Shown here one piece after another: positions 5,179 to 61,300 of a stretch of 64,000 bases of DNA. Made by a program: the position numbers and the translations under genes. This DNA comes from Eledone cirrhosa. Lineage: Eukaryota. Below the pieces are notes generated by a model. The model saw nothing but the letters and a program-made list of their open reading frames with translations, was not told the DNA's origin and did not search any database. The stretch spans positions 120,404,001 through 120,468,000 of the forward strand of contig OZ024742.1 in NCBI GenBank assembly GCA_964016885.1, in the 5' to 3' direction. Numbering within the stretch: position 1 is the first letter of the stretch; each line of letters starts with the position of its first letter.

Positions 5179-5199
5179 CCTAAATACATAGTAAAACCT

Positions 5200-5589: not shown

Positions 5590-5633
<44 letters not shown>

Positions 5634-6550: not shown

Positions 6551-6591
<41 letters not shown>

Positions 6592-6632
6592 TGAAAAAGA
6601 ACAAAGGAACTATTATGACATTATAAGTTTAT

Positions 6633-6679
6633 TGCCGACAGCCGTTTCGTCCGACCATATGGTGGGACTTTTCAAGGCA
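6633..6679 (-). ncRNA. hammerhead ribozyme, U3-A8 variant (mirror copy)
   Basis: Exact reverse complement of 7291-7337. Confidence 0.75.
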
Positions 6680-7290: not shown

Positions 7291-7337
7291 TGCCTTGAAA
7301 AGTCCCACCATATGGTCGGACGAAACGGCTGTCGGCA
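7291..7337 (+). ncRNA. minimal type I hammerhead ribozyme, U3-A8 variant
   Basis: TGCC-TTGAAAA-GTCC.ACC(atat)GGT.GGAC-GAAAC-ggct-GTC-GGCA; GUC cleavage after 7333; AATAAA immediately follows. Confidence 0.75.
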
Positions 7338-8789: not shown

Positions 8790-11394
8790 TTAAATCTCTC
8801 TCACACACAAACAAACAAACAAACAAACAAAAAAGACATTTCCATTTTTACAACCTGTCAAGATAAAACTAAAAACCTTTATTTTTACACCAATTATTAT
8901 TGGAAAAGTGAATAAAAACTTGATGCATTTTCTATGGATAAAATTTATTTTGATATTCAAATGATTCCAGTTTTTCAACTAGGTCGCCTCTGATAGACAT
9001 TCAACTCATTTCAGTTAACGCTACTCATCTAAACTTTGTAGTTTGCATTTTCCACTTTCCAGTTTGAAATTTCTTTTATTCTTTTACTGGTTTCAGTCAT
9101 TAGACTAAGCCATGCTGGAACAACACTTTCAAGAGTTTTCTTGATCATATTAACCCCAGTATTTATTTCAGTCCATTACTTTATTTATCAAATCACTGAG
9201 CTATGCTTTTTCATATAGTTTTACATCAGATATAACAGGCTTCTGCACAATTTCTGTCTACTAAATTCCACTCACAAGATTTTGGTCAACTTGAGGTTAC
9301 AGTATATGATAGGTGACAATATGCTGCACAGTGGTATTGGAACTAAGACCACATAGTTGCAAGCCAACTTCTTAACCACACAGCAATGCCTATATCTATG
9401 CCAGTATTTTTGTTTCTTATTATCCCCAGACTCATATGACTGAAAAATTTTCTGAAAATTAGGAAGAACAAAACTTAGTATAATCCTTCATTTTAAATAT
9501 GAACTATAACCATGTGATTAACAATTTTTAGAGTTCATAAAATATAATAGCTTCTATCTAGAACTGTAGCTATTTTAACTCTAGAACAATATAAATATAA
9601 TATAAATGAGATGAGATGATAGAAATAAAATCAACCAATTTTCGACAGCTAATGTGATAATTTCAATGTTATGTTATTATAGGCAAACACAGAACAGCTT
9701 TTTAGGTTTTATAGTAAAATTAACTGTCAAGAGAATAGCTTATAATATATATTTGTTTTGAAATAAAAAAAAAAATTTTAAAAATCCAAATAAAGAAAAT
9801 CTAATAAACAGCAAGATGAAGATGTATAATAGAACAATAATATCACCAACCTTGGAAGATTAAACAGTATGTAGAATAACAGGGTAGATCTTGAAATTTA
9901 GACAATTACATAAGTTTTCTGCCTGCAAAGACCTTCCAGTATAAAACTCACTTTTATAAGGTTGAACTAACTTTATAAATGAATACAAACTTTTGCTGTT
10001 GTTGGGGGAAAGCGGGGTGGGGTGCTAAAGAAAAATGGTGGCAGAATTTAAGCACATATTCTATCAAAGAGTTCAACACCCATGTCACTCATCCACTCTA
10101 ATATAATTTCAATCCCTGCTCATGACCAACCTATAACCAGTCTGGGAGGCTTGCATAAGCCATGTAAGCCATCCCTTGTATACATCTAAATTTAAATGAA
10201 AAATAATTTAAAAAATTAAAATAACACCTACTCGACACATATCACAGGTGTGTTATTAATAAACTTCTGCATTTTTTTTTTATTAACATAGCATATAGCC
10301 ATTTAAAGGTTTTGAGGTGTATGGTCATCAACAGCCAGCTTCATAAAGTGCCCTTGCCTACTAAAATAACAATGAGAAGATATAAACGCAGAAGAAGCTT
10401 AGCAAAAGGCACTATCCAATTATACAGAACAGCTGCTGCCTACAGCCGGGAGCCACATTACTGTGCTATCTTTTCACAACTAAGTGGACTATTTAAATGT
10501 TCCTTGACTATGGACATTAAAAAACTGTAGACCTTTTAGCCAGTAGGATGGCCACAGTATTGACTCAGCCAGTTACAGATGTTTATTTTATGATCAGGTT
10601 TACTTGATCATAAAATAAACATTCAGCACCACCTGTTTCACTCTGATCAGTGGGTCTTAAATGCATCAAGCTTTTAACAATCTCACAAAATATTCCCGGT
10701 GCATCACAGACATGTTGATTTTGAAAGATAACCTCTTAATAACTCAGTAGTCTATAGATATCTGGACAAGGAGTAGATAAGAGTGTCAGCTTTGGGGAAA
10801 AGAAATTCAAAATTATAATTTTAACATTTTAAACTTAACTGCACAGACAGCTAAGACTACTTTCTTGATAAACATTAAACATAAAATTGAAAAATGTATA
10901 AATTATATATCATTCAAAATAAATCAATGATATATATACACACAAATATTCAACTTTGTTTCTGTTTGTGATCATATTAAATTACCAATAACAGTAGTTT
11001 CTGCTAAGTTTTCCAATTAAACTCGTGGGAAAATTATAGTACTAAACATTTTCATACATACACCAGTATTTACTATGTTCTGAAAACAAAAATAATAACA
11101 GGAATTTTATTTTCACAAATGGGATTACTAAAAGAATAGGTTTAGCATTCTCAATATATCTTATTTCCTAACTTTACATTACACTGCTTTTGTTTTTGTT
11201 TTCTTTCTTTTTCTTCTTTTTTCCTTGTTCTTCGAAACATTTTGTATATAAAATTCTAAAATCTACTAATAATCATTATTGTTCAGCATCAAAAAAATAG
11301 AAATTAATTGTAGTTGAAAAATTCCATTATTGTTTCTATGTATATATTTATATATAAAATGGAATTTCTCAACTACAATTTATATGTATGTGTG

Positions 11395-11457
<63 letters not shown>

Positions 11458-11499
11458 AATAATGGAATTTCTCAACAATAACTTATGTGTGTATGTGTA

Positions 11500-13276: not shown

Positions 13277-13992
13277 CAACTACTTGTGTATCTGCCGCAT
13301 ACAAAGTCTTCCTCTTTTTTTTTTTTCTTGACATACTGTCAGTAATCCAGCTCCACCTTTCAGTGTCAACTACTTGTGTATCTGCTACATACAAAGTCTT
13401 CCTTCTTTGACAGACTGTCAGTAATCCAGCTCCACCTTTCAGTGTCAACTACTTGTGTATCTGCTACATACAAAGTCTTCCTTCTTTGACAGACTGTCAG
13501 TAAGCCAGCTCCACCTTTCAGTGTCAACTACTTGTGTATCTGCTACATACAAAGTCTTCCTTCTTTGACAGACTGTCAGTAATCCAGCTCCACCTTTCAG
13601 TGTCAACTACTTGTGTATCTGCTACATACAAAGTCTTCCTTCTTTGACAGACTGTCAGTAAGCCAGCTCCACCTTTCAGTGTCAACTATTTGTGTATCTG
13701 CTACATACAAAGTCTTCCTTCTTTGACAGACTGTCAGTAAGCCAGCTCCACCTTTCAGTGTCAACTACTTGTGTATCTGCTACATACAAAGTCTTCCTTC
13801 TTTGACAGACTGTCAGTAATCCAGCTCCACCTTTCAGTGTCAACTACTTGTGTATCTGCTACATACAAAATCTTCCTTCTTTGACAGTCTGTCAGTAATC
13901 CAGCTCCACCTTTCAGTGTCAACTACTTGTGTATCTGCTACATACAAAGTCTTCCTTCTTTGACAGACTGTCTGTAATTCAGCTCCACCTTT
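13277..13992 (-). repeat. 79-bp minisatellite, about 9 copies, derived from an RTE LINE segment
   Basis: Unit starts 13371, 13450 ... 13924; minus strand of the last unit reads IHKRWS*ITDSLSKKEDFVCSRY, like RTE WVYKRCSGIAGKLTGREKYVCSR. Confidence 0.9.
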
Positions 13993-21501: not shown

Positions 21502-21887
21502 TATCTTGGGTCTCAAATAATAGGGGGGCTGGAATAAGCAGGGAAAGGTTAGAAAATCAGTAATTTTTCCAGATTGTCTCCACTGATGTTTTTAAAAACC
21601 AGAATTAGCCATTTAGTTTACATATTGAGACCCCCAACCCATCCTATTTATTTTATAACAAATGGGATTTCTAGTAATGTACAATTTTTGTCATGTATAA
21701 TTTTTTTTTAATGTACAAAGAAAATTAATTGTCACTGGAATGTTACCACTTAAAATAAAATTTCGCCAGAGATAGATTAGCAAAATTTAATAAGCAGAGA
21801 AGTGGGGGTTGGAATAAGACCAGGAGGTTTGGGGAAAATCTGAAAAATTAATGGGGGGGGGGGGCATTATTCTAGACCGAAGAGTGT
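21502..21887. mobile_element. degenerate MITE of uncertain superfamily
   Basis: Imperfect TIRs TCTTGGGTCTCAAATAAT / TCTTCGGTCTAGAATAAT; internal GGGGGxTGGAATAAG repeated. Confidence 0.4.
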
Positions 21888-21918
21888 ATTTGTGTATGTG
21901 TGTATATATATATATATA

Positions 21919-21961
<43 letters not shown>

Positions 21962-21966
<5 letters not shown>

Positions 21967-23216
21967 CAATGAGTATAGCAAGGAATTTAGCGTACAGGTT
22001 GGTGTCCACCAGGGCTCTGTTCTTAGCCCTCTCCTGTTCATCATAGTCCTGCAGGCAATAATGGAGGAGCTTAAGACCGGATGCCCATGGGAACTCCTGT
22101 ATGCTGATGACCTCGCACTTATAGCTGAATCTATGGTAGAACTAGAGGAGAAATTCCAAACTTGGAAGCAGGGACTAGAAAGAAAGGGTCTCAAAGTCAA
22201 CATGACAAAGACTAAGGTCCTTGTAAGTAGACGAGAAAACAGAACCCAGATCCCCTCAGGGAAATGGCCTTGCTCAGTATGTAGGAAAGGTGTAGGTAGG
22301 AACTCCATTCTCTGCCCCAAATGCAAACAATGGGTACACAAGAGAGGTAGCGGGATCTCAGGAAGCTTAATTAAGAATGTAGGCTTCACATGCAGCAGCT
22401 GTGCTGGGACAGCAAACAGCAAACAGCCACAGGAAACAAGTACCACCAATCTCTGGGAGGGCTCTGTAGAAACAGTAGACAGCTTCTGCTACGTAGGTGA
22501 CTGAATTAGCAGCAGAGGTGGGTGTTCAGAAAGTACAATAACTAGGGTAAGAACGGGATGGAAGAAGTTCAGGGAACTACTGCCACTGCTAGCTGCAAAA
22601 GGCTTCTCCCTCAAAATGAAAGGCAGACTCTATGATGCGTGTATCCGAACAGCAATGTTACATGGTAGTGAGACCTGGGCGCTGAAGGTGGAAGACTTAC
22701 GTAGCTTAGAAAGAAACGAAGCCTGTATGCTCCGATGGATATGTAATAGTAATATATGCGAACGACAAAGCATAAATGAATTGAGAGAGAGACTGAGCTT
22801 AAGAGGAATCAAATGCTGTGTGCAGGAGAGGCGGTTGCGTTGGTATGGACATGTGATGCGTATGAAGGATGACAGCTGCATAAAAAGGTGCAGAGCACTA
22901 GAAGTCAATGGAAACTGCGGAGTGGGGAGACCCAAGATGACCTGGGATGAGGTGATAAAACCGACCTTACCCAATTACACCTCTCAAAGGCGATGACACA
23001 CGACCGTGACCTCTGGCGTCACGCAGTAATACAGAGTACCCGACCTCCCACGGGAGTACCCGAGAGTACCCGACCTACAACAAGACAACCCATCTAACCC
23101 ATGGTAACATGGAAGAACGGACGTAAAACGGTGGTGGTGGTGGTGGTGGTGGTGGTGGTGGTGGTGGTGGTGGTGGTGGTGGTGGTGGTGGTGGTGATGA
23201 TGATGATGATGATGAT
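21962..23216 (+). mobile_element. 5'-truncated RTE-clade LINE with (GTG)n(ATG)n tail
   Basis: GVHQGSVLSPLLF, LLYADDLAL, Cys-rich finger, LLHGSETW-like and RRLRWYGHVMRM motifs; premature stop 22502-22504; 3' UTR internally deleted. Confidence 0.93.
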
Positions 23217-26416: not shown

Positions 26417-28524
26417 ATTCCCATTGTTACTGTTGTGTTGTGTCCTCAGCTGGGTACTGGGGATGTTGTGGACACAGCACTGCCATTCCCATTGTTACTG
26501 TTGTGTTGTGTCCTCAGTTGGGCACTGGGGATGTTGTGGACACAGCACTGCCATTCCCATTGTTACTGTTGTGTTGTGTCCTCAGCTGGGTACTGGGGAT
26601 GTTGTGGACACAGCACTGCCATTCCCATTGTTACTGTTGTGTTGTGTCCTCAGCTGGGTACTGGAGATGTTATGGACACAGCACTGCCATTCCCATTGTT
26701 ACTGTTGTGTTGTGTCTTCAGCTTGGCACTGGAGATGTTATGGACACAGCACTGCCATTCCCATTGTTACTGTTGTGTTGTGTCCTCAGCTGGGCACTGG
26801 AGATGTTATGGACACAGCACTGCCATTCCCATTGTTACTGTTGTGTTGTGTCTTCAGCTTGGTACTGGAGATGTTATGGACACAGCACTGCCATTCCCAT
26901 TGTTACTGTTGTGTTGTGTCCTCAGCTGGGTACTGGGGATGTTGTGGACACAGCACTGCCATTCCCATTGTTACTGTTGTGTTGTGTCCTCAGTTGGGCA
27001 CTGGGGATGTTGTGGACACAGCACTGCCATTCCCATTGTTACTGTTGTGTTGTGTCCTCAGCTGGGCACTGGAGATGTTATGGACACAGCACTGCCATTC
27101 CCATTGTTACTGTTGTGTTGTGTCTTCAGCTTGGTACTGGAGATGTTATGGACACAGCACTGCCATTCCCATTGTTACTGTTGTGTTGTGTCCTCAGCTG
27201 GGTACTGGAGATGTTATGGACACAGCACTGCCATTCCCATTGTTACTGTTGTGTTGTGTCTTCAGCTTGGTACTGGAGATGTTATGGACACAGCACTGCC
27301 ATTCCCATTGTTACTGTTGTGTTGTGTCCTCAGCTGGGTACTGGAGATGTTATGGACACAGCACTGCCATTCCCATTGTTACTGTTGTGTTGTGTCCTCA
27401 GCTGGGTACTGGAGATGTTATGGACACAGCACTGCCATTCCCATTGTTACTGTTGTGTTGTGTCTTCAGCTTGGTACTGGAGATGTTATGGACACAGCAC
27501 TGCCATTCCCATTGTTACTGTTGTGTTGTGTCTTCAGCTTGGTACTGGGGATGTTGTGGACACAGCACTGCCATTCCCATTGTTACTGTTGTGTTGTGTC
27601 CTCAGCTGGGTACTGGAGATGTTATGGACACAGCACTGCCATTCCCATTGTTACTGTTGTGTTGTGTCCTCAGCTGGGTACTGGAGATGTTATGGACACA
27701 GCACTGCCATTCCCATTGTTACTGTTGTGTTGTGTCCTCAGCTGGGTACTGGAGATGTTATGGACACAGCACTGCCATTCCCATTGTTACTGTTGTGTTG
27801 TGTCCTCAGCTGGGCACTGGAGATGTTATGGACACAGCACTGCCATTCCCATTATTACTGTTGTGTTGTGTCTTCAGCTTGGTACTGGAGATGTTATGGA
27901 CACAGCACTGCCATTCCCATTGTTACTGTTGTGTTGTGTCTTCAGCTGGGCACTGGAGATGTTATGGACACAGCACTGCCATTCCCATTGTTACTGTTGT
28001 GTTGTGTCTTCAGCTGGGCACTGGAGATGTTATGGACACAGCACTGCCATTCCCATTGTTACTGTTGTGTTGTGTCTTCAGCTGGGCACTGGAGATGTTA
28101 TGGACACAGCACTGCCATTCCCATTGTTACTGTTGTGTTGTGTCTTCAGCTTGGTACTGGAGATGTTATGGACACAGCACTGCCATTCCCATTGTTACTG
28201 TTGTGTTGTGTCTTCAGCTTGGTACTGGAGATGTTATGGACACAGCACTGCCATTCCCATTGTTACTGTTGTGTTGTGTCTTCAGCTTGGTACTGGAGAT
28301 GTTATGGACACAGCACTGCCATTCCCATTGTTACTGTTGTGTTGTGTCTTCAGCTTGGTACTGGAGATGTTATGGACACAGCACTGCCATTCCCATTGTT
28401 ACTGTTGTGTTGTGTCTTCAGCTTGGTACTGGAGATGTTATGGACACAGCACTGCCATTCCCATTGTTACTGTTGTGTTGTGTCTTCAGCTTGGTACTGG
28501 AGATGTTATGGTCACAGCACTGCC
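26417..28524. repeat. 68-bp tandem satellite, 31 copies
   Basis: Unit ATTCCCATTGTTACTGTTGTGTTGTGTCYTCAGCTKGGYACTGGRGATGTTRTGGACACAGCACTGCC; 2108 bp = 31 x 68; no spacers. Confidence 0.97.
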
Positions 28525-31500
28525 AAACAGTTAAGAAGTTCACTCCACAATCATAAGGTGCTGAGTCCAATCCTACTATGTGGCATCTTGGGCAAGTATG
28601 ATTTGCTGTAACCTCGAGTAGACTTATTTGTTGAGAGTGAAATTGGGTGGGAAAGAAACTGATTGGAAGCCAGTCATGTGGACAATACCTGGCATTCAAA
28701 GGATCAGACTTGTCACTGTATCATGCTGAATATCCCCAGAAATTACATTGAGAGCACACAGATCTGTGGAATACTCAGCCACTTTAACATTAATTTCATG
28801 AGCAAGCTGTTCCATTGACCAAACAACTGGAGCACCCATCTTGGTAACGAATAGCGGTCCGTTCCTCTGGAGATGTCTGCTGTCCCTCCACCACCACTTA
28901 TATAGCAACAGAACAAGAAGAGAGAGAGAGAGGTTAAACAACAATAGAATATGATGGGAATGGGAACTGTGAAGCAGTTTGGTAGATAATAGCAGATGAG
29001 ACTACTCTCTTTTGTATGAAGTAAATTTAAGAATTTAACATCTTGTTGTTTTTAAAGTTGTGTTGTGTGGTTCAGGCACATATATTTCTATATTACTATA
29101 CAGGATGAAAAGGCTATTAGGTAAGAAATTTACTGACACTAAATTCTGTTAGTGGAGAAATGGGAGGGAAGATGAAAAAATGGTGTGTTTTAATATTTAA
29201 TACTGAGTATATTCATTTCTTTAAACACCTTTGATACCAACACACTCATAACAGCCTGTTTTATTTTATCGAATGAAATTATCCATTTTTAAAGGTTCAG
29301 ATTCAAGTTAACACCTTCCAATATAATTTTGATATAAGAACCTTTTGTTAAGTTCCCTTGAAATTCTTTGTTAATTAATTGATATTGTGTATTGTATTTT
29401 TTTTGTTTTGTTTTTTTTAGAATAGGTACACCATATTCTTGAATGCCATAAAAGGGTTGGCATTAGGGAGGGTATCTGGCTATAAAACACTGTCTCAAAC
29501 CACCTTATCCATACCAGCATAGAAGAGTGGGCATAAAAAAATGATGAAGACAGTGTACTTCGTTTGGAATATCATCATCATCATGGTTATGAAAAGGCTA
29601 AGAACCATAAATACACCAATTTACAGGTGTGTAAATGATTCTCTCTAAAGAATATGATGTATGAAGACTTGCTTGTAAGAGATTCAGAGTTCAGTTTCAA
29701 AACAGAGCAGGTGGCATGGAGAATAAATAGTTAACAGTGAATATCGTGGTATAGAATGAAGAATTAACAACGAATATGGTGCTATGAAGACAGGTTGGAA
29801 AACAGCAGCAAATCAGGAATGTGCAATCTACTATATTGTTGAAGATGTTTCCATTTTTCTTTAACATATTGTATTGGAGAGCTTAATTAATATTAAGAAA
29901 TAGATTTAGCACACTATATGATTGATAAACCAACCAACAGTAATAAGAGGAAATGAGAAAAGAATATATATACATTTAATTGTACCATATACAGCATTAA
30001 TGTCCATTAGCAAAACAAAACATTTTATTTAATCTCACAGACAATAGATTTTACAGAGTGAATGAATGATAGCACGTGTAGTATGAAGACTGATATGTTA
30101 ATTAAATGGCAGTAAGAGTAACAATTAAAAACCAGAAGTGCTGACGTTATTTGCTAAGAGATATTACTGTCAACAGCAACAATTATGGCAGTGATGGTGG
30201 ATGTTGCAGTGATGGTGGTGGTGATGATATAGTGGGAGTTATGAAAAACTAGCAATGTAATATTCTGAGATAGTTGGATATCAGTGGAACTTAACAGTTA
30301 AAGAATTAAGCAGAAAAAGACATTAAGAGATGTTTACAATCAAATTATCCCTGTCTACTATCTGAAAGGCTGGCAATTGATTTTCTGTCACTAACACTGT
30401 GATTGTGTTTTGTCCCTGACAAAGACACTGAAGTCTCAATAGCCTAATGCAACTATCTGTAAATAGATACCATGAGAAATATTGTTCAGTGTGTTAGCAG
30501 TGAGGCACTGCTTAATTTATATAGTGTTTCATTAGTTTAAAATGCTCAGCTTAAATCATCCTATGAGCAAGAAGAATTAAATAGAAAATCACTCAACAGA
30601 ATCCATTTGAAGATGGCGTCTTCACTGGTTCCCTAACAATATTATTTCATTTTCTGTTTCTTTAACTGGAACTCTTGAAATCAACAGTTACATACTACAC
30701 AGAGTTACAAAACAGAGGTCTGTACTACATACTGTCACAAGATACAGGCATGTATCACAAGACTGTACCACCTTCAGTAAGTAATGTAGTCAATCTTCAA
30801 AGTTGCATGCTCCAACATGCCTTCAAGCACTGGATGAGCCAAGAGTACCTCTCAGTGGATGCTTAACCCACTTGAAATAAACATATCTCTCTCAATTCAC
30901 AAAATGCATTGGATAATGTAGATGTATATTGACTAGGCCTGGGGAAAACACAGGATAGTCACAACTATAATGACTTTGATCATAATTCTTCTAAGTCAGG
31001 TATCATCTGGGACTTAAGAACAAGCACTGGATTCCTCTAATCAGAGCAGGAATTCAATCCATCTGAAAAGGCTCAACAAAATAACTCAAAAGTGCTTAAA
31101 ATGCAAACAAATTAAGACCCTAAAAATGGAATGCAGACACTCAAGGAGAGAGGAAGTTCAAGAGATGGAAAAGACCTTTGCTACAGGAAACAGCCAGACA
31201 CTATTTTGATATAACATCTAAATCCCTATGAGTTAGTAAGGTAATAAACAAAACAAGGTAGGTGTCTTATCTATTTTCTACTGTCTTATCACAGCAGGCT
31301 TATAATGGTGTTAAAGCATGCATGCTAACAGGTACACACACATACATGTACATACATACATACAATGGCTGACTAAACACACGTGATTTCCTCCTGTAAA
31401 AAAATGTTTCTGTTTCTTCCTCTCTTACTCTCATCAATTTTTCTATTTCATCTATCTTTCATTCTGTCTTCTGATGAACAACTCATATCCCAAAAATTAT

Positions 31501-41771: not shown

Positions 41772-42942
41772 CTGACAATATTGAGAGAAAAAGAAAAGGA
41801 GTGCGAGCTTTCTTTTGCCTTGAATGTAAAACTAAAATTATTTACAGAGAAAAAAAAACAGAATTAAGGAAACTGAAATAAACAAAAAAATGTTTAATAA
41901 AATAAAACAAATGGTTTTTAATTTTTTTTTTTTTTTTTTCTGTCTTGATTTCATGTGTTGTTTGATTTTTGACTTAAAAAGACATTCAAATTAGCCTAAA
42001 ATTGTGTGAAGAAAAAAATGATGAACTATAAGAATCCATAGAAAAAAACTTTCATATAATCACTTAGTAATGATAGATATACAGCAATTAAACACTATCA
42101 CTAATGTTGTTAAGCATTCAAATAAAGAGATACATAACAGACAAGGAAATTACTGAAAGGTAGATTGTAGTTCATTATAAATTTCCTACTTTGTTTTAAA
42201 GGAGAGAGTAATTGTTTTCTTCCCATTCAATGATATTAGATAGTTTTGTTTTTTTTCCTAATCATGCAAATGATTGAACCTGTTGAGAGGACAATATATT
42301 TGGTTACATACTTCACACGCCTGAGTTCAATTATCACTGAAAATCACTTTACCTTTCATCGCAACAGATGTGATAAAATAAATACAATCAGTTTACCCAA
42401 CGATTTTTCAGACAAAAATGACCTTATGTCTCAGTAAAAAGTAATCGGTTAATTCAAAGGAGATAGACAGGAAATATGTACCCTTATAAAACCCTTCCAG
42501 ATACTGGAGCCATATCTAAAGTAGTTGGGTGTTGTTAGTTTGAATTGTAAGCTAGAAATTGTTAGCAAACATAAATGTAACGTTTAAACTAAAAGCTGTA
42601 ATAATTCATGATTAAAATATTGCTACATTTATCTGGACTGGGTCATCATCATCATCAACGTTTTACGTCTATTTTTCTACACTCAAAATCTTATTTCTAA
42701 TTACAATTCTGTTAACTAATATCCCACCATCCTACATGCTTCTGTAAATGGGAAACATAAATTTGCTTACCTTGCCAGTCCTATCATAAATTTGCTTACC
42801 TTGCCAGTCCTATCATAAATGTTGCTCTTATCTAATGGCATAATCCATGAACTCTACCTTGACAGACTCAAATCAAAAATTCACAGGTCTCCAAAGAGCT
42901 TATCCTGTTACATCCACACGCTATGGTAACCAGCCAAGAAAG

Positions 42943-43295
42943 GGGCCTTCTGCTAGTCTCCTTCCATTCATGTCATGCCACTGCTCTTCAGACATCTGGC
43001 GAGACCTTTTCCTAGTCTCCTTCCACTCACATGACATCACTGCTCCCTATACTTCCAATAAGACCCTCTGCTAGTCTCCTTCCACTCATGTGATGTCACT
43101 GCTCTTCAGACTTCAGGCAAGACCCTCTACTAATCCCCTTCCACTGACATCACATCGGTGCTCTTCATACTTCAGATGAGGCCCTTTGCTAGTCCCCTTC
43201 CACTGATGCAATGTCAAGCTCCCCTTACTTCAAGTGGGACCCTCACCCAATCCCCTTCCACTCAAGTGGCATCACTGCTCCATATACTTCTGACA
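42943..43295. repeat. old, diverged 59-bp minisatellite, 6 copies
   Basis: CTAGTCTCCTTCCACT-like anchor at 42953, 43012, 43071, 43130, 43189, 43248. Confidence 0.8.
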
Positions 43296-44429
43296 CACTA
43301 TTTATAACCCCACAGCTTCCATGTATTCATATAGTAAGAAGTTACCTAAAATTGAACAGAAATTGAATTGATCAATACATAATTGTTTCTACGTTAGGCA
43401 CAAGGCCAGCAATTACCCAGTGCATTACTGGTACTTTATTTTATCGACCCCGTAAGGATGAAAGGCAAAGTCAACCTCGGCGGAATTTGAACTCAGATCG
43501 TAAAGGGACGTAACTATGCTGGAAAGCATGGCGTCCGACCCTCTACCGATACTGCCAATCCACCAATAAATTAGCTTTGGTAGTCCAGAAAATATTTGTG
43601 ATAACACTATGTTTGCCTTACTGTCACACTAAAGAAATGATAAGCAGAATCAAACATCCACCAGCTGACAGAGGGTCAGTTTCTCTAGGTAATTATATTA
43701 TCATTGTAATTGTGACTAACTCACCATCTTCATCAGCTAATATCTATTAATTGTATTCATTAATTGTTATCTTTATTAATTATTTGCTGTTTCTTCAAGT
43801 TACTTTTTTTCTTTTTTGTTTCTTCTTCTAACTTTCAAGCAATTCACTTTCGCTGTAGTTGTGTACAATGACGATAAAAATTAAGTGAAATTGAATACAT
43901 ACATCCGATTGTTTTCATATCAATGAAAATTGAAATAGAATCAATGCCAAGACAAAAAACATGAACATGTTTCTGACAAGATGTCTGCAACATTGGCAAA
44001 ACATCTGTTGATGTGATTGCACTTACTAAGATAAATTCAAATAAAATCCATTGAAATGTAGATGTTTACAAAAATAAAAATAAAAACTGAGTAAAAACAA
44101 ATAGTTCTTTATGAAAAGAAAGAAACCCTTATTGTTTAATCATTTTCATCTATCCTTTCAGATTTATTTTTCAAACTGTTTTCATCATGATATAGGTTAC
44201 TAGCACGTCTTCCTATTACAAAAAGAAAGTTTGTATTCTGATAAAAATTACTTGCTATCAATTAATCTCATCCTACATAGCCATAACAGCTGTTAGATAT
44301 GTCAAATTCTGATAACAAATACAATTACTGATTGAAAAGTCAACATTTTCCTTGCCACGAATTCATCTTTATAAGATTTCATCTTTATAATCATCATAAT
44401 CACTACAACCAACTCTACCCACAATAACT

Positions 44430-46897
44430 GGCAATGGAAAAACTACAACAACTCTGGGAAACTAAGCCAGAACAACCTGCCATCCTCTACACACCATCAT
44501 AAACTGCAAGAAGGGTACAAATTGTTGTCCTTAAATGCTCGCAGTTTATGCAACAAGATACATCTGTTTAACTCCTATGTCAGAAGCATCGACCCCGACT
44601 TCATCAGTCACGGAAACATGAGCACATTCCTTACTATGTGATGGCGTTTTCAGCATTACTGGGTACAACCTGTTCCCCAAGGACCGCATTAATCACCGTG
44701 GTGGTGGTATGATGGTCTACGTTCGTTCAAATTTTTCGGTAATTCATTGCGTTGATTTAAACGAATCACAAGAAGTTTTTTTCTGTGACATACGTATGAC
44801 CATGTCAACACTTCTGCTTGGTGTTGTTTATCGCCGCCCCCCCCCCCCAAACTACCATCAGGACACACAGCTTTGCGGTATCCTCAAAGCTGCTGCCAGG
44901 AAAACAGCCACTTATGTGTTTATTGCAGATGACTTCAATCATCCTGAGATCAATTGGGAAACCTTTCGTTGGCCACAAAGTGCAAACGATTTCCTTGAGC
45001 TAGTGCTGGACTCAAACTGGTCACACATAGTCACCTCTCCAACAAGTGACAACACTTTGGACCTGCTCTTCACCACTACTCCTGAAGTGGTTATCAGTTG
45101 TACTACTGAGGAACCTCTAGGCGACTCTGATCATACTATGATCATTGCCAATCTGGCTCTTGCGGGCAGCAACAAAAACCAGAGCCATCTCCAATCTGCT
45201 TGCTTTGATTGGAAGAAAGCAGATTGGAACTTGTACTGCACTGAGCTACAGCGCTCAAACTGGCATGAGTTCTATAACTCTGGAGATGTGAACACTATAC
45301 TCCAGAGCATCCTGGACTTAATATGGATAGCGTGTGCGGCATCAGTGCCACGTAAGCAGAAAAAAAATACCCCAAAAGTGCAATTTGGGAAACTTCAGTG
45401 GTCCGACTTGCCAGGAAAGAACGTCGGAATGCTGAACGGGAATATAAACTGCAATAATCAGATGCCAACAGAAAAAAGCAGAATATATCTTCCAACCATC
45501 TCAAGCAAGTGACAAAAAAGGCATTGCTTGAATTTGAACAGTGCATAGCAACCAATCCTGACCGTAAGGTATTCTGGAAATAGGTACATTCAAAGCAGAG
45601 ACCTCACTCTCCAGTTGGTCCTCTTCGCAATCCCCACACAAGCCAGATCACTGACGATCCCAAAGAATGCGCAGAACTCATTGCTGAGTGCTATGCAAGC
45701 ATTTTTACTGTTGAAAACCAGAATGTACCATCTCCACCTTCTCTAACATCAAATTCCATAACAACTATGGAATTTACACCTGCAATGCTGCAACGTCACC
45801 TTAAGAATAAGCGCAACTATGCCTCCCCTGGTCTTGATGGTGTTACATACCTGCTTCTCAAACGTGCCGAGTACTTCCTTTTGCACCAGCTTTCTTGCTT
45901 CTTTCAATACTGTCTCAACAATGGTGTTACTCCGGAGCAGTGGAAAACTGCCAGTGTCATTCCCCTGTTCAAAAAGGGCGACTGCACGTCACCTGTCAAC
46001 TATCGTCCAGTCAGTCTTACTAGCTGTATTGCCAAACTGATGGAATCCTGTGTCAGAGAAACACTTTGGAACTTCTGGAGCCTCATCTGGCCCTCGCAAT
46101 TTGGATTTATCCCTAACTCCAGCTGCTATGATCAGCTTATCGAGTTCCTTGAAGACATTACCCGGATCACTGACAGCGGCTCATGGGTGGATGTTGTTTA
46201 CCTTGACTTCGCTAAGGCTTTTAATCCTGTGCCACACAAAAGACTTATGGCGAAACTCTCTGCAATGGGTATAAAGGATGATCTTTTTAACTGGTTGAAA
46301 TCCTTCATTCTCAGCCGAAAAGAGGTAGTCACGGTTATAGGACAGCATTCTTCACCATATGAGATGTTATCTGGTGTACCACAGGGATCTGTTCTTGGTC
46401 CCCTTTTGTTTGTTGCATACATTAATGACATAGATGCCAACTTAAAGAATGCCACAGTACTGAAATATGCAGATGACATCAAGCTGTACCTTGAAATCAA
46501 AATGACAGATCCTGAAATCTATAACTCTTTCCTACAATCAGACCTGGACACAATGCAGCAATGGATCACAGACTGGCAACTGAAGCTGGCTGTGGACAAG
46601 TGTACCACCATGCATTTTGGGAGGAAAAATCCAGCGTCCACATACTCCCTCCACAACACTGATATCAAGAAGTCCTCTTGTGAACGTGACTTGGGCATTA
46701 CTGTCAGCATCGATTTGCGTTGGACAAAGCACATCTCTAAAATTGTCAAGAAGGCCGAGAGTGTCTTGGCATCACTCAGCAAGACCTTTGTTAGCCGCTC
46801 TCCAGCCATCTATTTAAAGCTGTATACAGCTATGGTACGACCACACTTGGAATTTGCATCATCAGTCTGGAACCCCTATCTTGCTCAGAACATTGAG
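44430..46897 (+). mobile_element. CR1-clade LINE ORF2 (APE endonuclease plus RT), decayed
   Basis: LNARSLCNK, DFNHPEINW, LGDSDH, NYRPVSLTS, YLDFAKAF, GVPQGSVLGPLLF, YADDIKL, VRPHLEFASSVWNP; several stops and frameshifts. 5' boundary approximate. Confidence 0.93.
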
Positions 46898-49800
46898 TAC
46901 CAGGCTAATATCTCGCATTATGTGGCTGTCTCTTAATATTCTAAGTTGATGTGGCTGCTCAAGTTGACCATATTTGTCAACATTGTAGTTATTAGGTTAA
47001 TAAAATAATTGTATGTCAGTTCAAATACTCCAGTCCTCTCTACATGGTCATGAACTGCTAGAAATAGTAACCAAATCTTCTTCAAACCACATCCTCCATC
47101 TCTAAAAATGAACAACATGGTGGATAATGTTAACTTAGAGAGAGACGTTATATATGAAACATTTTGATCATACATCTGCTCAATCAGAACAGCATCAAAG
47201 ATCTATAGGCTTGTGATACCTGACAGAAACTTGTTTTGTTCCTTTTATGGTCTAAACTCCAACCTTATCAGGGCTGACTTCTCTATTCATTCTTACATTG
47301 ATAAAATAAATATCAGTATTGTTGGCAGTTAAATTGAATCAGTTACTAGAGTGCTAGATTTATGGTATCTAGATCGATATTGTTTAGAGTTCTATTCCAA
47401 CCAGAAAATCAAATAAGTGTTATTTGTGCATTTAACTAGTGATTATACACCCTCCCCATAAAACATTGGTAATGTACTTGCTGAAAACTTTGATATGCTG
47501 ACACAGTTTTTCAACAAACTCAGTTTCTGATCTAATTTTCATTTTCAGTAACTACATCACTTGCATTTCTGATCACACCAGGTAAGGCATAAATCTTATG
47601 TTCCTATTTTAAATTCCCTGCAAAGTTCCTAGTATTGACGAACCAAATTTGAACCAATGTTGGTTATCGTTTCACTTCTGTTGCTAATACACACACAAGT
47701 AGCATGAACATCCAACCCTTATATATTTAAGGGCTTGCTAATAATTAATAAATCATTTCTATTGTTCTTGTAATGGTTTATTTCAGCTTTAAGATTAATC
47801 TGCTGAATAAATTCTCTCATTACTAAACACCCTTTCACGATCATATTTCTAATGAAATATACTATTTCAATTAATTAATGAAGAATTTTGAGGAAGTTAC
47901 TAAATTTATTAATTATTCCATTACTAAGACAGTAACTTAATGTAAGGTTCTTATATAAAATTATGGTGGAAGATATTAATTTAAATTGGAAACCTTTAAA
48001 ATGGGTGGTTTTATATCATAGAACCAGACCCGGTTTTGGCCAGGTTGGTAACTAAAGAGTTAAAAACCAGTTAACTCAGCTCACATTTTTTTAATTCAGT
48101 TCTTGGAATTTACCTGGCACTACTACTAAAAGAAGTTAACTGTCAAATTTATGATTCAAAGAACATACCTAAAACATTAAAAAAAACCTGGATAAATCTC
48201 AGTCAACTTCTCATTCCCTTCATAAATATTTAAATGATATAAATAGAATGGGTCACACATCTGCACAGTGCCAGTCTGTTTCAACGGTTGAAGAATAAGA
48301 GAGTCAGTCTACTAGTATATCAATAAAAAATATATGTTAATCTTTCAGGAAGATAGAAAAATATTTTAATCTAGCAGGCTGAACAAAAATGAAATACACA
48401 CACTTTATCAATTTATGGAGGTTACTGTTACAAATGGGTATCTTGGTTTCTATTCACTCGACTACAGATATTTTGATTTTTGATCATTTCTTAGACTCGT
48501 GGTATGGTGTGGTATGGTCCCGTAACTCCTGATAGATGGGTATTTTAAGCCTGGTGGAGCCCATCCCTCTCCAGGTCTGAGTACAGCAGATTTATTCCAG
48601 AGAAAGATAGAACCTAAGAGAGAGGAAATGAGAAAGAGATATAGAGGAAGAATCAACCTCAGTACTACACTGATATTTTTTTTAACGACCTCGAAAGGAT
48701 GAAAGGCAAAGTTGACCTCAGCAGGATTTGAACTCAGAGGACAGAGAGCCAGAACAAATACAATAAAGCATTCTATCCGGCTTTCTAATGACTCTGCCAA
48801 TTCACCGCCTATCTTAGACTCATACATCATCTTTTAATTCTAATGAAGAGACAACATTACCATTTTCCCAGACAGTATAGTTCATTTGGTTTTGAGATTG
48901 TGTTAGGATAATCTGAAATTCAGGCAGTTGATGTTCAGATAACTGAGATTTGATTCTATATATTACTGAAGTTGTTTAAACAATTGAATCAACTCAGCTT
49001 CATTTTTTATGGTAATATTTGTAATTAACTGGGGGAGGGGGAAAATCAATCCAGGTAAATGATTTTTTTTTTTTTTTTTTTTACCTCAGAACAGTGATGT
49101 ACTAAACTAAATATTGTAAGCAACTAATCAGAATCTCTTCTTTCTATACATACAATAATGCCTTCCATGAATTCTATAACAAGAACTAGGTCTATTTTTG
49201 AATCCAACCATATAGGTTTCACTATTTCATAGGAAAAGTAGACATAAAACAAGGAAAAACAATGAATATAATATATAAAACTTACTGCAATATGAATGTC
49301 TGCAAAACTAAATAATTGATATTGTATATAAGAAACATAATGACAGGTTGCTATAATGAACACTTTAAAAATCTTCATTTATACAATAAAACTAAAGCTA
49401 TTTCCTTTATGAATAACCCTGTAGGTATGTTGTTGCTGAGTTGCTTCAAATACTTTTTTTTTCTATACATCTAATGCTTAGTACTATCGTACAACTCTAC
49501 AACAAAAAAGCTCTGGTATCAGAAAATTGTGTAACATGAAATGAAGGGAATTAAAATAGGTTCTCTTTCTCAATATTACTTACAGACAATAACCCATCTG
49601 AATAGCTTGTGGTAATAGAAACAAGTTTTATGAATCTCAAAAAATAACCCATTTCAATAGCTTGTGGTAATAGAAACCAGTTTAATGAATCTCAAAAAAC
49701 GATATGGTAAGATGTGAAAACAAGTGAAAAGAAATAAAGTGTTGTCTGCAAAGGAGAGAGAGTGAAAAGCATAACAATTTAGTTTCAGAGTGGGTAGTAG

Positions 49801-52479: not shown

Positions 52480-53682
52480 GTCATCATCACCATTTTACGT
52501 CCGTTCTTCCATGCTAGCATGGGTTAGACGGGTTGTCCTGTTGTGGGCAGTGTCTGGTCGGCTGACCATGCCTTGCTCATACAAGAACTGATTTTGGCTT
52601 GATTTCTACAGCTGGATGCCCTTCCTAACACCAACCTCATTTACAGTGAGTGCTGGGTGCTTTTCTCCGTGGCGCCTACACGTCCACTCTACAGTGTGGG
52701 CTGGGTGCTTTTTTGCCGTGGCACCTCCACGACCACTTTGCAGTGGGAGGGTGTGGGCATATTGTCTATATGCTTCAGCTTGTAGCCATGGGAGGTCAGG
52801 TACTCTGTATTACTGCGTGACGCCAGAGGTCACGGTCGTGTGTCATCGCCTTTGAGAGGTGTAATTGGGTAAGGTCGGTTTTATCACCTCATCCCAGGTC
52901 TTCTTGGGTCTCGCCTATCCGCGGTTTCCATTGACTTCAAGTGCTCTGAACCTTTTTATGCAGCTGTCATCCTTCATATGCATCACATGTCCATACCAAC
53001 GCAACCGCTTCTCCTGCACACAGTATTTGATTCCTCTTATGCTCAGTCTCTCTCTCAATTCATTTATGCTTTGCCGTTCGCGTATAGTACTATTACACAT
53101 CCATCAGAGCATGCAGGCTTCGTTTCTTTCTAATCTACGTAAGTCTTCCACCTTCAGCGCCCAGGTCTCACTACCATGTAACATTACTGTCCGTATACAC
53201 GCATCATACAGTCTGCCTTTCATTCTGAGGGAGAAGCCTTTTGCAGCTAACAGTGGTAGTAGTTCCCTGAACTTCTTCCATCCCGTTCTTACCCTAGTTA
53301 TTGTACTTTCTGAACACCCACCTCCGCTGCTAATTCGGTCACCTAGGTAGCAGAAGCTGTCTACTGTTTCTACAGGGCCCTCCCAGAGATTGGTGGTACT
53401 TGTTTCCTGTGGCTGTTTGCTGCTTGCTGTCCCAGCACAGCTGCTACATGTGAAGCCTACATTCTTAATTAAGCTTCCTGAGATCCTACTACATCTCTTG
53501 TGTACCCATTGTTTGCATTTGGGGCAGAGAATGGAGTTCCTACCTACACCTTTCCCACATACTTAGCAAGGCCATTTCCCTGAGGGGATCTGGGTTCTGT
53601 TTTCTAGTCTACTTACAAGGACCTTAGTCTTTGTCAGGTTGACTTTGAGACCCTTTCTTTCTAGTCCCTGCTTCCAAGTTTG
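52480..53682 (-). mobile_element. 5'-truncated RTE-clade LINE with full 3' UTR, same subfamily as 21962-23216
   Basis: Near-identical reverse complement of 22156-23050; (ATG)n tail. Confidence 0.93.
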
Positions 53683-57086: not shown

Positions 57087-57372
57087 CTAGGGCGGGTAAA
57101 ATTCCCGAGATCCATGGACAAGTTCTCTCCAGCGGTCTCTGTCCCTCATTATCACTGCCATGTCCTGCGTCTCCAACAGACCAGTGTCTCTCCTTAGGGC
57201 ATCAACATACGTTAACCTTGGTCTTCCTCTTCCAGTGTGTCCATGTAGGGGCTCCCACAGGAGCACTGAGTGCAATGTCAACTCTGGATGTCGGTAAGCA
57301 TGTCCAGCTAACCTCAGTCTCCTCTGTGTCACTTTTGAGCTGACTTTTGGGAGGCTCCCATACAGCTCTGAG
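57087..57372 (-). mobile_element. 3' fragment of a second RTE-like LINE family, between (TA)n tracts
   Basis: LYGSLPKVSSKVTQRRLRLAGHAYRH...LLWEP...GRGRPRLTYVD. Confidence 0.8.
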
Positions 57373-57388
57373 TTTATATATATATATA

Positions 57389-57899
57389 CTTGGTGAGGCA
57401 ATAAAGTCTTTAGAATAGTATTCTGTCTGCCATATATAGCAGTAAATGTAGTTAATATTAATTGGAATTTGAACTTTGTTGTACATGTGTGATATTCTGT
57501 ATGAATGCTGTATTTGGTGGCAGGCCGATGCATAATTATTTTGCTGTCATTCTTGTGATTTTATAATACGCACATCAAACTGTTCAATCCACAAAAGATT
57601 TTTTCCAGAGGAGAAGAGTAGCAATGATCAAACAATCACCCTATAGTCCCAAATTAAATTTGTGCCATCGTGGAGTGTTCAAGTTATTAAAGCAACATCT
57701 TTGAAATTTTGTTTTTGCTTCATTAGAAGAGGCTGTAGATGAATCGTTGCCGAACGAGTTAAATGCTTTGCATAAGCACTGTAAAGATGTTATTGCATTC
57801 AATGGGGATTATGTTTTGCAGAATAAATAAATTTTAGTTTCAATATGTTGTGCATTTTCATTTAAAGGGTTATTCTAAGGACTTTATTGCCACGACAAG
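57389..57899 (+). mobile_element. internally deleted mariner (Tc1/mariner) element
   Basis: About 29-bp TIRs CTTGGTGAGGCAATAAAGTCTTTAGAATA / CTTGTCGTGGCAATAAAGTCCTTAGAATA; 57633-57830 reads QSPYSPKLNLC...HCKDVIAFNGDY (YSPDL-like and GDY motifs). Confidence 0.85.
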
Positions 57900-58104
57900 A
57901 GAGAGAGCGAGAGAGAGTGAGTGAGTGTGTGAGAGAGTGTGTGTGTCTGAGTGAGCGTGCGCGCGTATATATATATATGTAGGAGGTGAGTTTTATTGTA
58001 GTACAATAAAGCAATGCAGATATCGGATAAGAAGCACTCTACAGTTTGTGGGACTGGAGTATGCATAATATAAGATCAAAAGATGGTTAAAGGAGTTCAA
58101 TATA

Positions 58105-58171
58105 TTTTATTATGCGCATTTCAAAAACAAACATCATCAAACAATAATATTTGTGTTTTCATCAGATAAAA
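58105..58171 (-). ncRNA. hammerhead ribozyme (mirror copy)
   Basis: Reverse complement of 58284-58350. Confidence 0.8.
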
Positions 58172-58283
58172 CAGGAGAACATGATATGAAGGCTAAAAAA
58201 ACACTTGTTGATAGTGCAGTTATGTTGATTTAAAACTGCACTATCAACAAGTGTTTTTTTAGCCTTCATATCATGTTCTCCTG

Positions 58284-58350
58284 TTTTATCTGATGAAAAC
58301 ACAAATATTATTGTTTGATGATGTTTGTTTTTGAAATGCGCATAATAAAA
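58284..58350 (+). ncRNA. minimal type I hammerhead ribozyme
   Basis: TTTTAT-CTGATGA-stem II (15 pairs, 3 G.U, GTTT loop)-GAAA-TGCGCA-TA-ATAAAA; palindromic stem III ATGCGCAT; AATAAA overlaps the 3' strand of stem I. Confidence 0.8.
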
Positions 58351-61300
58351 TATATTGAACTCCTTTAACCATCTTTTGATCTTATATTATATATATATAT
58401 ATATATATATAATTATCCCAATGATATCAACATTCCAATAATGACCCTATTACTTAGATGACGATTATTATGAGAATAGACCCTCTCAAGTTGACAATGG
58501 TCAATATAATGATCTGCTTGTAATATCACTATTGCTATTGGAAACATTTCATGCAAAAGCCATCCATTGTTCTTTGTTTCTATCAATTGCTAATTTTTTT
58601 GTGTGACAAAATTTCGTAGTGATAATGTGAACCTGTCAATTTCTATTTAATTCAGTTTCACAATAATGTCATTTTTTACACTAAGTTTTTTTTTTCCCCT
58701 CCCCATATCTCAACCCTCTGAAAATGTAGTCATCAGCAGACAAGTGGAATATTTTTTAACTAGTTATTTATGCACATAATGCAAATATGGCCATACATAT
58801 TTCCTGATGTCCAAATAATATTCTGTGTAAAATTCATATTAGTGGGAGTTGGCATTCCAATAGCATACTCCCCAGTTACTGGTAATGATCTCATTCATAT
58901 AGATACAATGACAGTTTTGAAAGCTTATGAATATGGTGGTATATGTTTTATTAATCTTAGTGGCTTGAAAGGCTATGCTGAACCAATACGCTGATAAACT
59001 ATTTAACATTTTTTATACTAACCTGCCCAAAACAACCTCTGCTTCTATGAAATAAAACAAGCCATTCTAAAGGGTTTCTATTCAAATTTAAATCTAACAT
59101 AATTTGACATGAGAAACCTTTGTTAAATTATATTCTAAGTACCAATTTTATAATGAAATAATTATTTTAGTAAATCCTTCCAAATTTTTCGTTAATTAAT
59201 TCAAATAGAAACAGTATTTCCTTATAAATATAGTAATGAAAGGTTAAGAAAAGTTGATTATGTCATCTTTAAAATCTTGAGTCAAAATTTCCAACAGATT
59301 ACCCTAACTAGTAACTTTGCAAGACAATTTTGAGAAAATGTCAGCATCTCCTGATGCAGTTGTCACTGAACATTGTAATAACAGTTGAATATTTCAATAC
59401 ATATGATTATTTGAACTGTGCACAAAACTGAGAGAGGGGGGGGGTCAACTGCTTACAGGTAAGCTGATTGAACTTAACAGCTCAGAGTTTAAAACAAATT
59501 GCTAGTCATTTTTGCATAGTCTATCATCAGATGGAATATGTGATCTGTCAAACATATGTGATTCTATTTTGCTATTTCAATATTGGTGGGTTTTAAGACA
59601 TCTAGATTTCAGTTATTTGTTGGGAATGATGTGACTTCATTATAATTATGTCTTACTCTCTTACATCCATTTTGAAAAGTTAGCATGAGAAATTACTCTA
59701 TTTTTAAAAACGTGGACACCAACTACTCTCAGCAACTTAGTTCACCTAACTGTGAATTAGTACCACATTGTGTTAATCCTGCTGTTTAAAAAGTATGGTT
59801 TGAACCATAATAGAAGCACTGATAAATTGTTTTTTGCAGCTATATACATCTTCTATAGCTAACCATTTCAATTGTGAATTTGCAGTGGAAACATCATGAC
59901 CAAAATGACTGAAGTAAGCTTGATTACAAACTTTTCCTAGAAGCACTTACTACATAGCAGTTATAGTAACAGTGGTGGTCAATAGTCCAGTGTCTTAATT
60001 CCCAACCAATGCTTTATTTACACAAACCAAACTTAGAGACTCACTATCAGCCATTGTTAACGATGAAGTAACAAACATTCTGAAATTCATTTAAAGTACA
60101 ACTAACATCAAAATGGAAATATGTTAGCAAGTAATAGACAAATAAAACTAGTTTTCTCTTGTGTTGGTCATGTGATATATGATCTACTACTTCGATTCGG
60201 TCATCTCTTCATAGTGAATCTATTTTCTCCTCTCATGCTTTCTCTGTAGATAGCAGTATCTCTCCCCTTAAAAGCATATGATTTCTGTTTCTCATACACT
60301 CGTTCTGTTTTAATTCCTGAACAAAGCAACAGATATGATATTTTTTATGGTCCTAATCCACAAGCAATTTCAAGACTCCACACAAAACAGTATTCTCAAT
60401 CAGGGTTTCTGTTGTCATGTATACATGTGCACAAGTATGTATAGGTATCCATACTATTGTAATCAAAGGAACAGTTTTACATTCGATATATATTTATGAT
60501 TTCATCTTGTTCTTAATGAAGAAAGGAGAGTTACTGTTTGAGTTTAAGACAATAAGCACTTATTTTAGTAGTTTTCCTGCATGCCATTTATGTTCAAGAA
60601 AGTATACAGGTACATACAGTTTATCATTTCAAACAAGAATGTCTATATTCACAACATTACTCTACATTAACCTTTTCATTACACTGTTTCTAATTAAAAA
60701 CACTGCCAATGACGCTCACGTCATTTTGAAAATAAACAAGAATTTTCTCATTATTTATCTGATGCTTGGAATATAACTTCTTAAAGGTTCTTAAATATGA
60801 TTGTGGTTAAAATAAACAACTTTGTATCATGAAACCAGGGATGTTTTAAGCAGTTTGCTATCAAAAGAGCTGATTCAGAATTATGAACCAGAGAGAGAGA
60901 GAGAGAGATCTATATATTACTAATACAGTATACATGTTTAATTCAGTACTTGACATTTTTCTTTGCATCTTTCTTCTAAAGCCTGTATTTCTAAAAATAT
61001 ATTGTTTTATCTCAGCACTACACAGAATGTATTTAACTGTCTTTCTATCAAATATTTCTTAGCTACCTTAAAGATATTGTACTTTGCTTGCCTGCTTCTC
61101 TTTCTATTATTTGCCTTCTAACCAATATAATCAAACACTAACTTTAACTCAATCCCATATAAATGGAAGGCTTCCATGTAATTCTAATCTACTCCATAGA
61201 AAATGTTAAAAGACTAAAAACAATCACATGATAATGATATATGTACTAAAGCAGAAGGTCAATGTACTATTAAAATCTACATTCTAGTTCACAATCAAAA

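What the first reader, a model, noticed from the sequence alone, without database searches (positions are those of the whole stretch)
57980..58390. Independent second fold-back hammerhead element: same architecture, different sequence
Seen: (TA)n-tail-arm-12 nt-arm-(TA)n with a canonical CUGAUGA/GAAA hammerhead and palindromic stem III; the short arm again ends at an AT microhomology (TATTAT). I see no sequence similarity to the 6585 element outside the ribozyme core. Stem II has 3 G.U pairs that work on only one strand, consistent with RNA-level structure. Inference: two unrelated families giving the same product argues for a shared integration mechanism rather than an accident or artefact.
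Basis: partly seen in the sequence, partly recalled or inferred. Interest (0 to 1): 0.75.

Follow-up and report, generated by a model that had tools for sequence, protein, structure and literature searches.

The report
Twin-copied Penelope retrotransposon front-end stub
The mirror-image sequence with a hammerhead motif on each strand is real and is a young stub of a Hydra-type Penelope-like jumping gene, a known kind of insertion; across its family many arms stop at one base and often carry an extra G there, which likely records a capped sense RNA copied twice, once from each cut end of the target DNA.

Summary
Confirmed: two 157-bp arms at 100% identity, a one-sided 86-nt tail, (TA)n on both sides, and a type I hammerhead motif per strand. 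The 12-nt 'spacer' is native element sequence. Both arms match, base for base, the pseudo-LTR of a 3,896-bp tandem element encoding RT plus C-terminal GIY-YIG with Hydra-clade motifs (1,643 exact hits to one 32-mer). The 6585 element is a second Hydra-type family (43% protein identity), so the families are relatives. Head-to-head copies, tail, hammerhead and (TA)n targeting are published. Added here: 47 of 47 pairs have one tailed and one tail-less arm (13 of 14 in a second set). 42 of 97 arms stop at one base (+1). There the preceding non-C base is G in 418 of 742, versus 1 of 16 at a control site. This fits a capped sense RNA copied from both nicked strands, against the published antisense self-priming proposal. 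No RNA data; snap-back is not excluded for long copies; the 6585 family showed no such hotspot. The scan's notes report the same reading at other loci of this genome.

The parts
57899..57978 (.). Compound microsatellite (GA/GT/GC) ending in the (TA)n target run 57966-57978
57979..58064 (-). Tail, element positions +172 to +257; in tandem copies it runs on into the 5' UTR of the next unit; its far end is one inferred reverse-transcription start
58065..58221 (-). Left arm, pLTR +15 to +171, 100% identical to the intact tandem copy L113
58103..58173 (-). Type I hammerhead motif of the left arm (CTGATGA 58165-58159)
58221..58233 (+). Head-to-head junction: 1-nt T overlap at 58221, then native +3 to +14 (the '12-nt spacer'); the family's +1 hotspot would fall at 58220
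58234..58390 (+). Right arm, pLTR +15 to +171, tail-less; ends at TATTAT, the second inferred reverse-transcription start
58282..58352 (+). Type I hammerhead motif: stem I, CTGATGA 58290-58296, stem II 58297-58332, GAAA 58333-58336, palindromic TGCGCA, predicted cut after 58344
58391..58411 (.). (TA)n target run, right side

Best explanation
The feature is two head-to-head copies of the front end (pseudo-LTR) of a Hydra-type Penelope-like retrotransposon set in a TA repeat, likely made when both cut strands of the target each primed a copy of the element's likely capped sense RNA and the two copies were joined near the RNA's start. SHOWN: parent unit of 3,896 bp with an RT + GIY-YIG ORF; two fixed 3' ends (+171 and about +257), one on each arm; (TA)n flanks; a 5' hotspot at +1 with an excess of G in front of it, on both arm types. 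INFERRED: (1) Pol II starts at +1, 124 nt before the hammerhead cut site; (2) the endonuclease nicks both strands of (TA)n; (3) one 3' end primes at +171 and the other at the tail end, as shown in vitro for an anole Poseidon element; (4) both polymerases read through the uncut hammerhead, the tail-primed one displacing or stalling behind the other; (5) the cDNA 3' ends are joined by short overlaps (the self-complementary ATAT at +1 to +4, or here 1 nt after loss of a few bases). Each pLTR carries both start sites, so starts in the 5' pLTR would give stubs like this one and starts in the 3' pLTR the long truncated palindromes. The window copy itself (arms from +2/+3 and +15) has no G; the cap inference rests on the family.
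For: Parent: L113-L116 tandems, unit 3,896 bp in L113, 821-aa stop-to-stop ORF; window arms identical to L113 over 169 and 244 nt. One tailed plus one tail-less arm: 45 of 45 script-paired insertions plus L016/17 and L036 read by hand; 13 of 14 in the ORF-picked set. 3' ends of 30 arms picked by their 5' end only: 21 at +168 to +176, 9 at +250 to +258, none elsewhere. Hotspot: 42 of 97 arms. Genome-wide base before +1: native context 1,070, palindromic AAC 336, G 418, T 243, A 81; control at +18 (native base also C): 16 non-C hits, 1 G (Fisher p 4.5e-5); 0 G in 8 substituted copies that keep native upstream DNA, so no G-variant subfamily. G on 21 tail-less and 9 tailed arms of 30, and on both arms of one insertion in L149/L150 and L152/L153. 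Tail-less arm longer by over 5 nt in 16 of 45 pairs; in L041, L047, L049 the arms do not overlap; in L027 and L046 the tailed arm stops at +164, at the other start site. Literature: both strands cut and extended, two RT starts bounding the tail, uncut RNA as template, predicted dimer (PMC11167929); extra G from the cap at full-length L1 junctions (PMC11702581); promoter inside the pLTR (PMC2377424).
Against: No RNA evidence for +1, a cap or hammerhead cleavage. 16 of 30 inspected G junctions could be templated by a 6-mer elsewhere in the pLTR; 14 of 30 could not. In the unbiased sample the G excess is 12 of 19 versus 7 of 29 (p 0.015) and falls to p 0.051 without three ambiguous cases (counted by eye; test). 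The 336 perfect CATATG-centred arms fit a hairpin equally well. In the 8 pairs with both arms cut upstream of +1 the tailed arm is longer (5) or equal within 5 nt (3), and sister arms share private variants, as snap-back predicts. L119 has two tail-less arms around a perfect GGAATTCC centre. The 6585 family shows no sharp 5' hotspot in the 30 pattern loci and 8 longer stretches examined. In PMC11167929 initiation needed no homology to the cut DNA; here both ends show 2-3 nt of AT match. No read or contig bridging this copy's own junctions was listed.
Confidence: 0.7

Rival explanations
1. Same element, but one cDNA primed at the tail end snaps back on its own 3' end and is copied to +171; later centre deletions create the asymmetries.
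For: Perfect CATATG centres (336 arms); near co-terminal arms in long palindromes with the tailed arm equal or longer in 8 of 8; sister arms 0-0.25% apart in 7 long palindromes versus a median 1.8% between copies, with shared private variants in 4 of these 7; perfect centre in L119.
Against: Tail-less arm longer in 16 of 45 pairs and also in the window copy; three pairs without overlap; G before +1 on tail-less arms and on both arms of one insertion; tail-less arms for which no partner was found in the fetched stretch (L008, L015, L030, L038, L039, L044, L048).
Confidence: 0.17
2. Self-priming on an antisense template, as proposed for Adineta Penelope elements (PMC3846280, Discussion).
For: A palindrome (CATATG) sits at the commonest junction, as that model expects.
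Against: The extra base is a G in front of the sense strand, where a sense cap would put it; the hammerhead stem folds on the sense strand only; most junctions are not perfect palindromes (17 of 45 carry inserted bases, 4 are blunt).
Confidence: 0.05
3. The +1 hotspot is a polymerase stop or recombination site (solo pLTR formation), and the G is ordinary terminal addition or local templating, not a cap.
For: 16 of 30 G junctions have a possible local template; no RNA data; hotspot not seen in the 6585 family.
Against: G is 1 of 16 at the matched control and 7 of 29 at other truncation points; 14 of 30 have no local template; +1 is an A after pyrimidines in an initiator-like context (motif recalled, no call).
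Confidence: 0.07
4. Long-read or amplification fold-back artefact.
For: Arms are 100% identical; no listed record bridges this copy's junctions.
Against: Fixed family-wide ends, one-sided tail, unique TA-flanked sites; raw Illumina reads of other individuals show TA after +171 and after the tail end, and an inverted +1 end joined to the tail.
Confidence: 0.01

Closest known systems
Hydra clade of C-terminal EN+ Penelope-like elements (Craig et al. 2021, PMC8557442; passages, sections 11 and 15, supplement parts 1, 2 and 7 read), e.g. Hydra-1_Obim, Penelope-13_HM
   Same: Single RT + C-terminal GIY-YIG ORF; DKT; CxCX5C linker; CxxC and CxH around the E and N; type I hammerhead in sense; (TA)n target; inverted 5'-truncated copy; one-sided tail. 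Hydra-1_Obim N-terminal 400 residues match P0002 motif by motif by eye.
   Different: [quoted passage not shown]
Poseidon from Anolis carolinensis, PAc (Frangieh et al. 2024, PMC11167929; parts 1-2 of 4 read)
   Same: Two RT start sites bounding the tail; AT-rich target cut and extended on both strands; hammerhead not needed for insertion.
   Different: Other clade; in PAc the tail lies inside the ORF and starts show no homology to the cut DNA; the part read does not describe one-start-per-arm pairing, head-to-head joining or a cap mark.
Adineta vaga Penelope elements (Arkhipova et al. 2013, PMC3846280; passages and Discussion read)
   Same: Direct pLTR with adjacent inverted pLTR, palindromes at the head-to-head junction, tail on one inverted pLTR, Inr-like site in the pLTR.
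   Different: They propose self-priming on an antisense template and leave the question open; the junction G here favours a sense template.
L1 twin priming and cap-derived extra G (PMC11702581, passages read)
   Same: Second primer from the other target strand; G at full-length 5' junctions; microhomology at the inversion joint.
   Different: L1 arms cover adjacent, mostly non-overlapping RNA segments and the internal site varies; here both start sites are fixed and the arms usually overlap fully.
Metazoan non-LTR retrozymes (bioRxiv 10.64898/2026.07.22.740005, part 1 of 5 read)
   Same: Type I hammerhead, pLTR-related.
   Different: This stub is identical to the pLTR of an ORF-bearing element and is not a tandem array of a non-coding monomer.

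Membership tests
EN+ Penelope-like element | Single ORF with PLE-type RT and GIY-YIG endonuclease linked to the repeat | tested here: met
   821-aa ORF in L113 with RT motifs (FIQFDI..YSSI, ITMGASD, YRDDG, FLDV) and IYECKI..YFGST. Pfam gave 0 families for the 696-aa P0001, so the domain calls rest on motifs and on comparison with published Hydra proteins.
EN+ Penelope-like element | Tandem or partial-tandem organisation forming pLTRs | tested here: met
   Head-to-tail tandems in L113-L116
EN+ Penelope-like element | Adjacent inverted 5'-truncated copy and one-sided tail | tested here: met
   47 of 47 and 13 of 14 pairs
EN+ Penelope-like element | Hammerhead motif in the pLTR, sense strand, palindromic helix III | tested here: met
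   description in PMC4209133
Hydra clade | DKT in place of DKG | tested here: met
   VHSDKTNN
Hydra clade | CxCX5C linker; CxxC and CxH flanking E and N; no CCHH | tested here: met
   CNCRIKNKC; CNLCLNEK..IINRRS..CLH; no cysteine pair of the CCHH type seen inside the GIY-YIG core by eye
Hydra clade | N-terminal RWK motif | tested here: inconclusive
   RRLRWT; homologues read RWK, RWR, RWM or RWF at this column
Hydra clade | (TA)n insertion preference | tested here: met
   TA follows the 3' end in all arms printed
Hydra clade | Phylogenetic placement with published Hydra proteins | not tested
   Published sequences were compared by eye only; no tree built
Hammerhead ribozyme | Self-cleavage at the predicted site | not testable with these tools
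   Monomer MFE does not form helix III; no RNA run
Hammerhead ribozyme | Covariation in stem II | tested here: inconclusive
   18 variants: 8 substitutions keep pairing, 7 break it; the 6 recurrent ones all keep it, but all are one-sided transitions and 18 of 30 possible transitions would keep pairing anyway
Non-LTR retrozyme | Tandem array of a short non-coding hammerhead monomer | tested here: not met
   Repeat unit is 3,896 bp and coding

The most novel reading that the evidence does not exclude
The genome holds about a thousand fossil 5' ends of one Penelope-like transcript: junction G's mark a capped sense RNA starting at +1, and each insertion is made by two polymerases primed from opposite target strands at two fixed sites of the same RNA. 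This would fix the template strand, map the promoter without RNA data and give one rule for pLTRs, tails and head-to-head palindromes of this class.
Probability: 0.6. Interest if true: 0.62.

Novelty: new member of a known kind. Interest (0 to 1): 0.42.

Why it matters
As an object it is an ordinary product of a known retrotransposon class. Its family bears on a question that the field names as open: how Penelope-like elements build inverted and tandem ends, and whether they copy a sense or an antisense RNA (PMC3846280 Discussion; PMC8557442 section 15). A young family with intact ORFs, two fixed start sites and a countable 5' mark gives sharp predictions for CAGE and for the existing in vitro assay.

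Tried and rejected
Rfam gathering scan: 0 hits. DNA search of G000 with the arm returned no candidate, even the window itself, because common words are skipped; patterns were used instead. Pfam: 0 families for P0001. Homologue search: 25 hits, one with an automatic, uninformative name. Sequencing runs: no RNA holder listed; this says nothing on expression. Locus-level read support: right flank covered at depth 8-11, no listed record bridging the junctions. AATAAA near the tail end as a poly(A) signal: dropped, since the tail runs on into the next unit and no copy printed ends in poly(A). Starts at the hammerhead cut (+126): none among the partner arms of 45 pairs; the 32-mer used to pick loci spans the cut, so primary arms cannot show it. 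Replication of the hotspot in the 6585 family: a pattern at the apparent site gave 2 hits and the apparent starts at -139/-140 were internal deletion variants or one repeated locus. MITE or DNA-transposon reading: rejected, arms are truncated pieces of an RT element. Literature searches for a cap or untemplated G or twin priming in Penelope elements found no such report in the held library; subscription papers (e.g. [quoted passage not shown]

Full report
1. Observation. Arms 58065-58221 and 58234-58390 are exact reverse complements over 157 bp. An 86-nt tail (57979-58064) extends the left arm only, and (TA)n lies on both sides. A scan of both strands of the window for type I hammerheads returned two hits, one per arm. 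Stem II folds on the sense strand with three G.U pairs (z -3.11) and not on the other strand (z -0.01); the monomer does not form helix III, whose palindromic sequence would pair in a dimer as described for Penelope-like element (PLE) hammerheads (PMC4209133 passages). Rfam found nothing.

2. What it is. An internal 32-mer has 808+835 exact hits in G000, 0 for the control, mostly as minus/plus pairs. Loci were fetched around the first 100 listed hits (two listed pairs were not fetched). Longer copies run into an ORF, and a pattern from its 5' part (85+72 hits) led to head-to-tail tandems with a 3,896-bp unit and an 821-residue stop-to-stop frame. The protein has RT motifs, a C-terminal GIY-YIG, DKT, CxCX5C, CxxC and CxH, which PMC8557442 section 11 lists as Hydra-clade marks; RWK reads RWT. 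It matches the printed N-terminal part of Hydra-1_Obim motif by motif by eye. Both window arms are identical to the tandem copy L113, so the insertion is young. The 12-nt spacer is native sequence, and the tail is the stretch that continues into the next unit.

3. The other element. The 6585 element shows no DNA similarity but its family carries an ORF directly behind the tail that is 43% identical to P0002 and has the same cysteine motifs. The two families are relatives. Head-to-head truncated copies, a one-sided tail, hammerheads and (TA)n targeting are all in PMC8557442 and PMC3846280.

4. Family rules. Numbering from +1, the A in TTTTC|ATATG. All 45 script-paired insertions and two read by hand have one arm ending near +171 and one near +257; in the ORF-picked set 13 of 14 do, L119 being the exception. 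Eleven loci showed no partner arm in the fetched stretch. Thirty arms picked by their 5' end all finish at one of the two sites. Of 97 arms in 58 loci, 42 start at +1, 28 reach further upstream and 27 start at +2 to +98. Genome-wide, the base before +1 is native in 1,070, palindromic in 336, G in 418, T in 243 and A in 81 (other C contexts not counted). At +18, where the native preceding base is also C, only 16 hits have another base, one of them G (p 4.5e-5). None of 8 substituted copies with native upstream DNA has G. G occurs on both arm types and twice on both arms of one insertion. Of 30 G junctions, 16 could have a local 6-mer template and 14 could not.

5. Mechanism. PMC11167929 shows for another PLE that both target strands are cut and extended, that two RT starts bound the tail and that uncut RNA is the template. 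An extra G at full-length L1 junctions is attributed to the cap (PMC11702581), and Drosophila Penelope has its promoter in the pLTR (PMC2377424). Together with section 4 this gives the best reading: a capped sense RNA from +1 is copied from both nicked strands, one primer at +171 and one at the tail end, and the cDNA ends are joined head to head. The tail-less arm is longer in 16 of 45 pairs, three pairs do not overlap, and two tailed arms stop at +164, at the other start site, as in L1 twin priming. In the window copy the arms begin at +2/+3 and +15 with a 1-nt overlap. Steps of transcription, capping, nicking and joining are inferred; none was observed.

6. Against. There are no RNA data. 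In the unbiased sample the G excess is modest (12 of 19 versus 7 of 29, p 0.015; p 0.051 without ambiguous cases). Perfect CATATG centres fit a hairpin. In 8 long palindromes the tailed arm is equal or longer and sister arms are nearly identical, sharing private variants in 4 of the 7 compared; this fits one RNA read twice, snap-back or gene conversion alike. The 6585 family shows no hotspot. Stem II variation is one-sided and transition-only.

7. Artefact test. Raw Illumina reads from two other individuals show TA after +171 (148 and 94 reads) and after the tail end, a loose end at +1 (54 reads, one run) and an inverted +1 end joined to the tail (97 reads, one run); RAD reads may come from few loci. 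Short-read contigs show many joints to +1/+2. This copy's own junctions were not bridged by any listed record.

8. Novelty. New family of a known clade, known architecture. The junction statistics address the sense-versus-antisense question left open in PMC3846280; searches found no report of a cap mark or twin priming for PLEs in the held library. Earlier notes of this scan give the same reading for other loci of this genome; one search came after my counts, and those notes are not independent support. Verdict: real, explained, moderate interest.

Noticed in passing
window 6586-7493: Second Hydra-type PLE palindrome (331 exact hits to a 37-mer, mostly unpaired in the list) with a roughly 105-nt one-sided tail; its hammerhead-like core reads TTGAAAA...GAAA instead of CTGATGA, possibly a U3-A8 variant (variant recalled, no call).
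   Followed up: partly
L121, L122, L124, L125: Four of 20 ORF-bearing loci have a long arm whose 5' end falls at about +246 to +264 of the upstream pLTR, the tail start site, as if copying stalls where another polymerase sits.
   Followed up: no
L119:545-9558: 9-kb palindrome of more than one full unit per arm, both arms tail-less, perfect GGAATTCC centre.
   Followed up: partly
L064, L067, L037, L046, L159 junctions: Junction inserts made of short copies of the +1 to +15 region on either strand, suggesting repeated slip-and-extend cycles at the joint.
   Followed up: no
L036:7805-8705 and L069:1978-2206: Further small inverted structures right beside family insertions in the same TA tracts.
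   Followed up: no
window 4751-5685, 11303-11486, 42321-43496: Other inverted-repeat pairs, the first two around TA-rich tracts.
   Followed up: no
window 13328-13992 and 26417-28525: Young minisatellites: 79 bp x 8.4 and 68 bp x 31, 97% matches.
   Followed up: no
window 21818-22996, 44622-46936, 52865-53562, 57087-57560: Fragments that read like LINE endonuclease and RT frames (recognised by eye).
   Followed up: no
P0002 residues about 600-680: Asparagine-rich stretch between RT thumb and linker, absent from most homologues; N-rich inserts are described for Adineta Penelope ORFs (PMC3846280).
   Followed up: no
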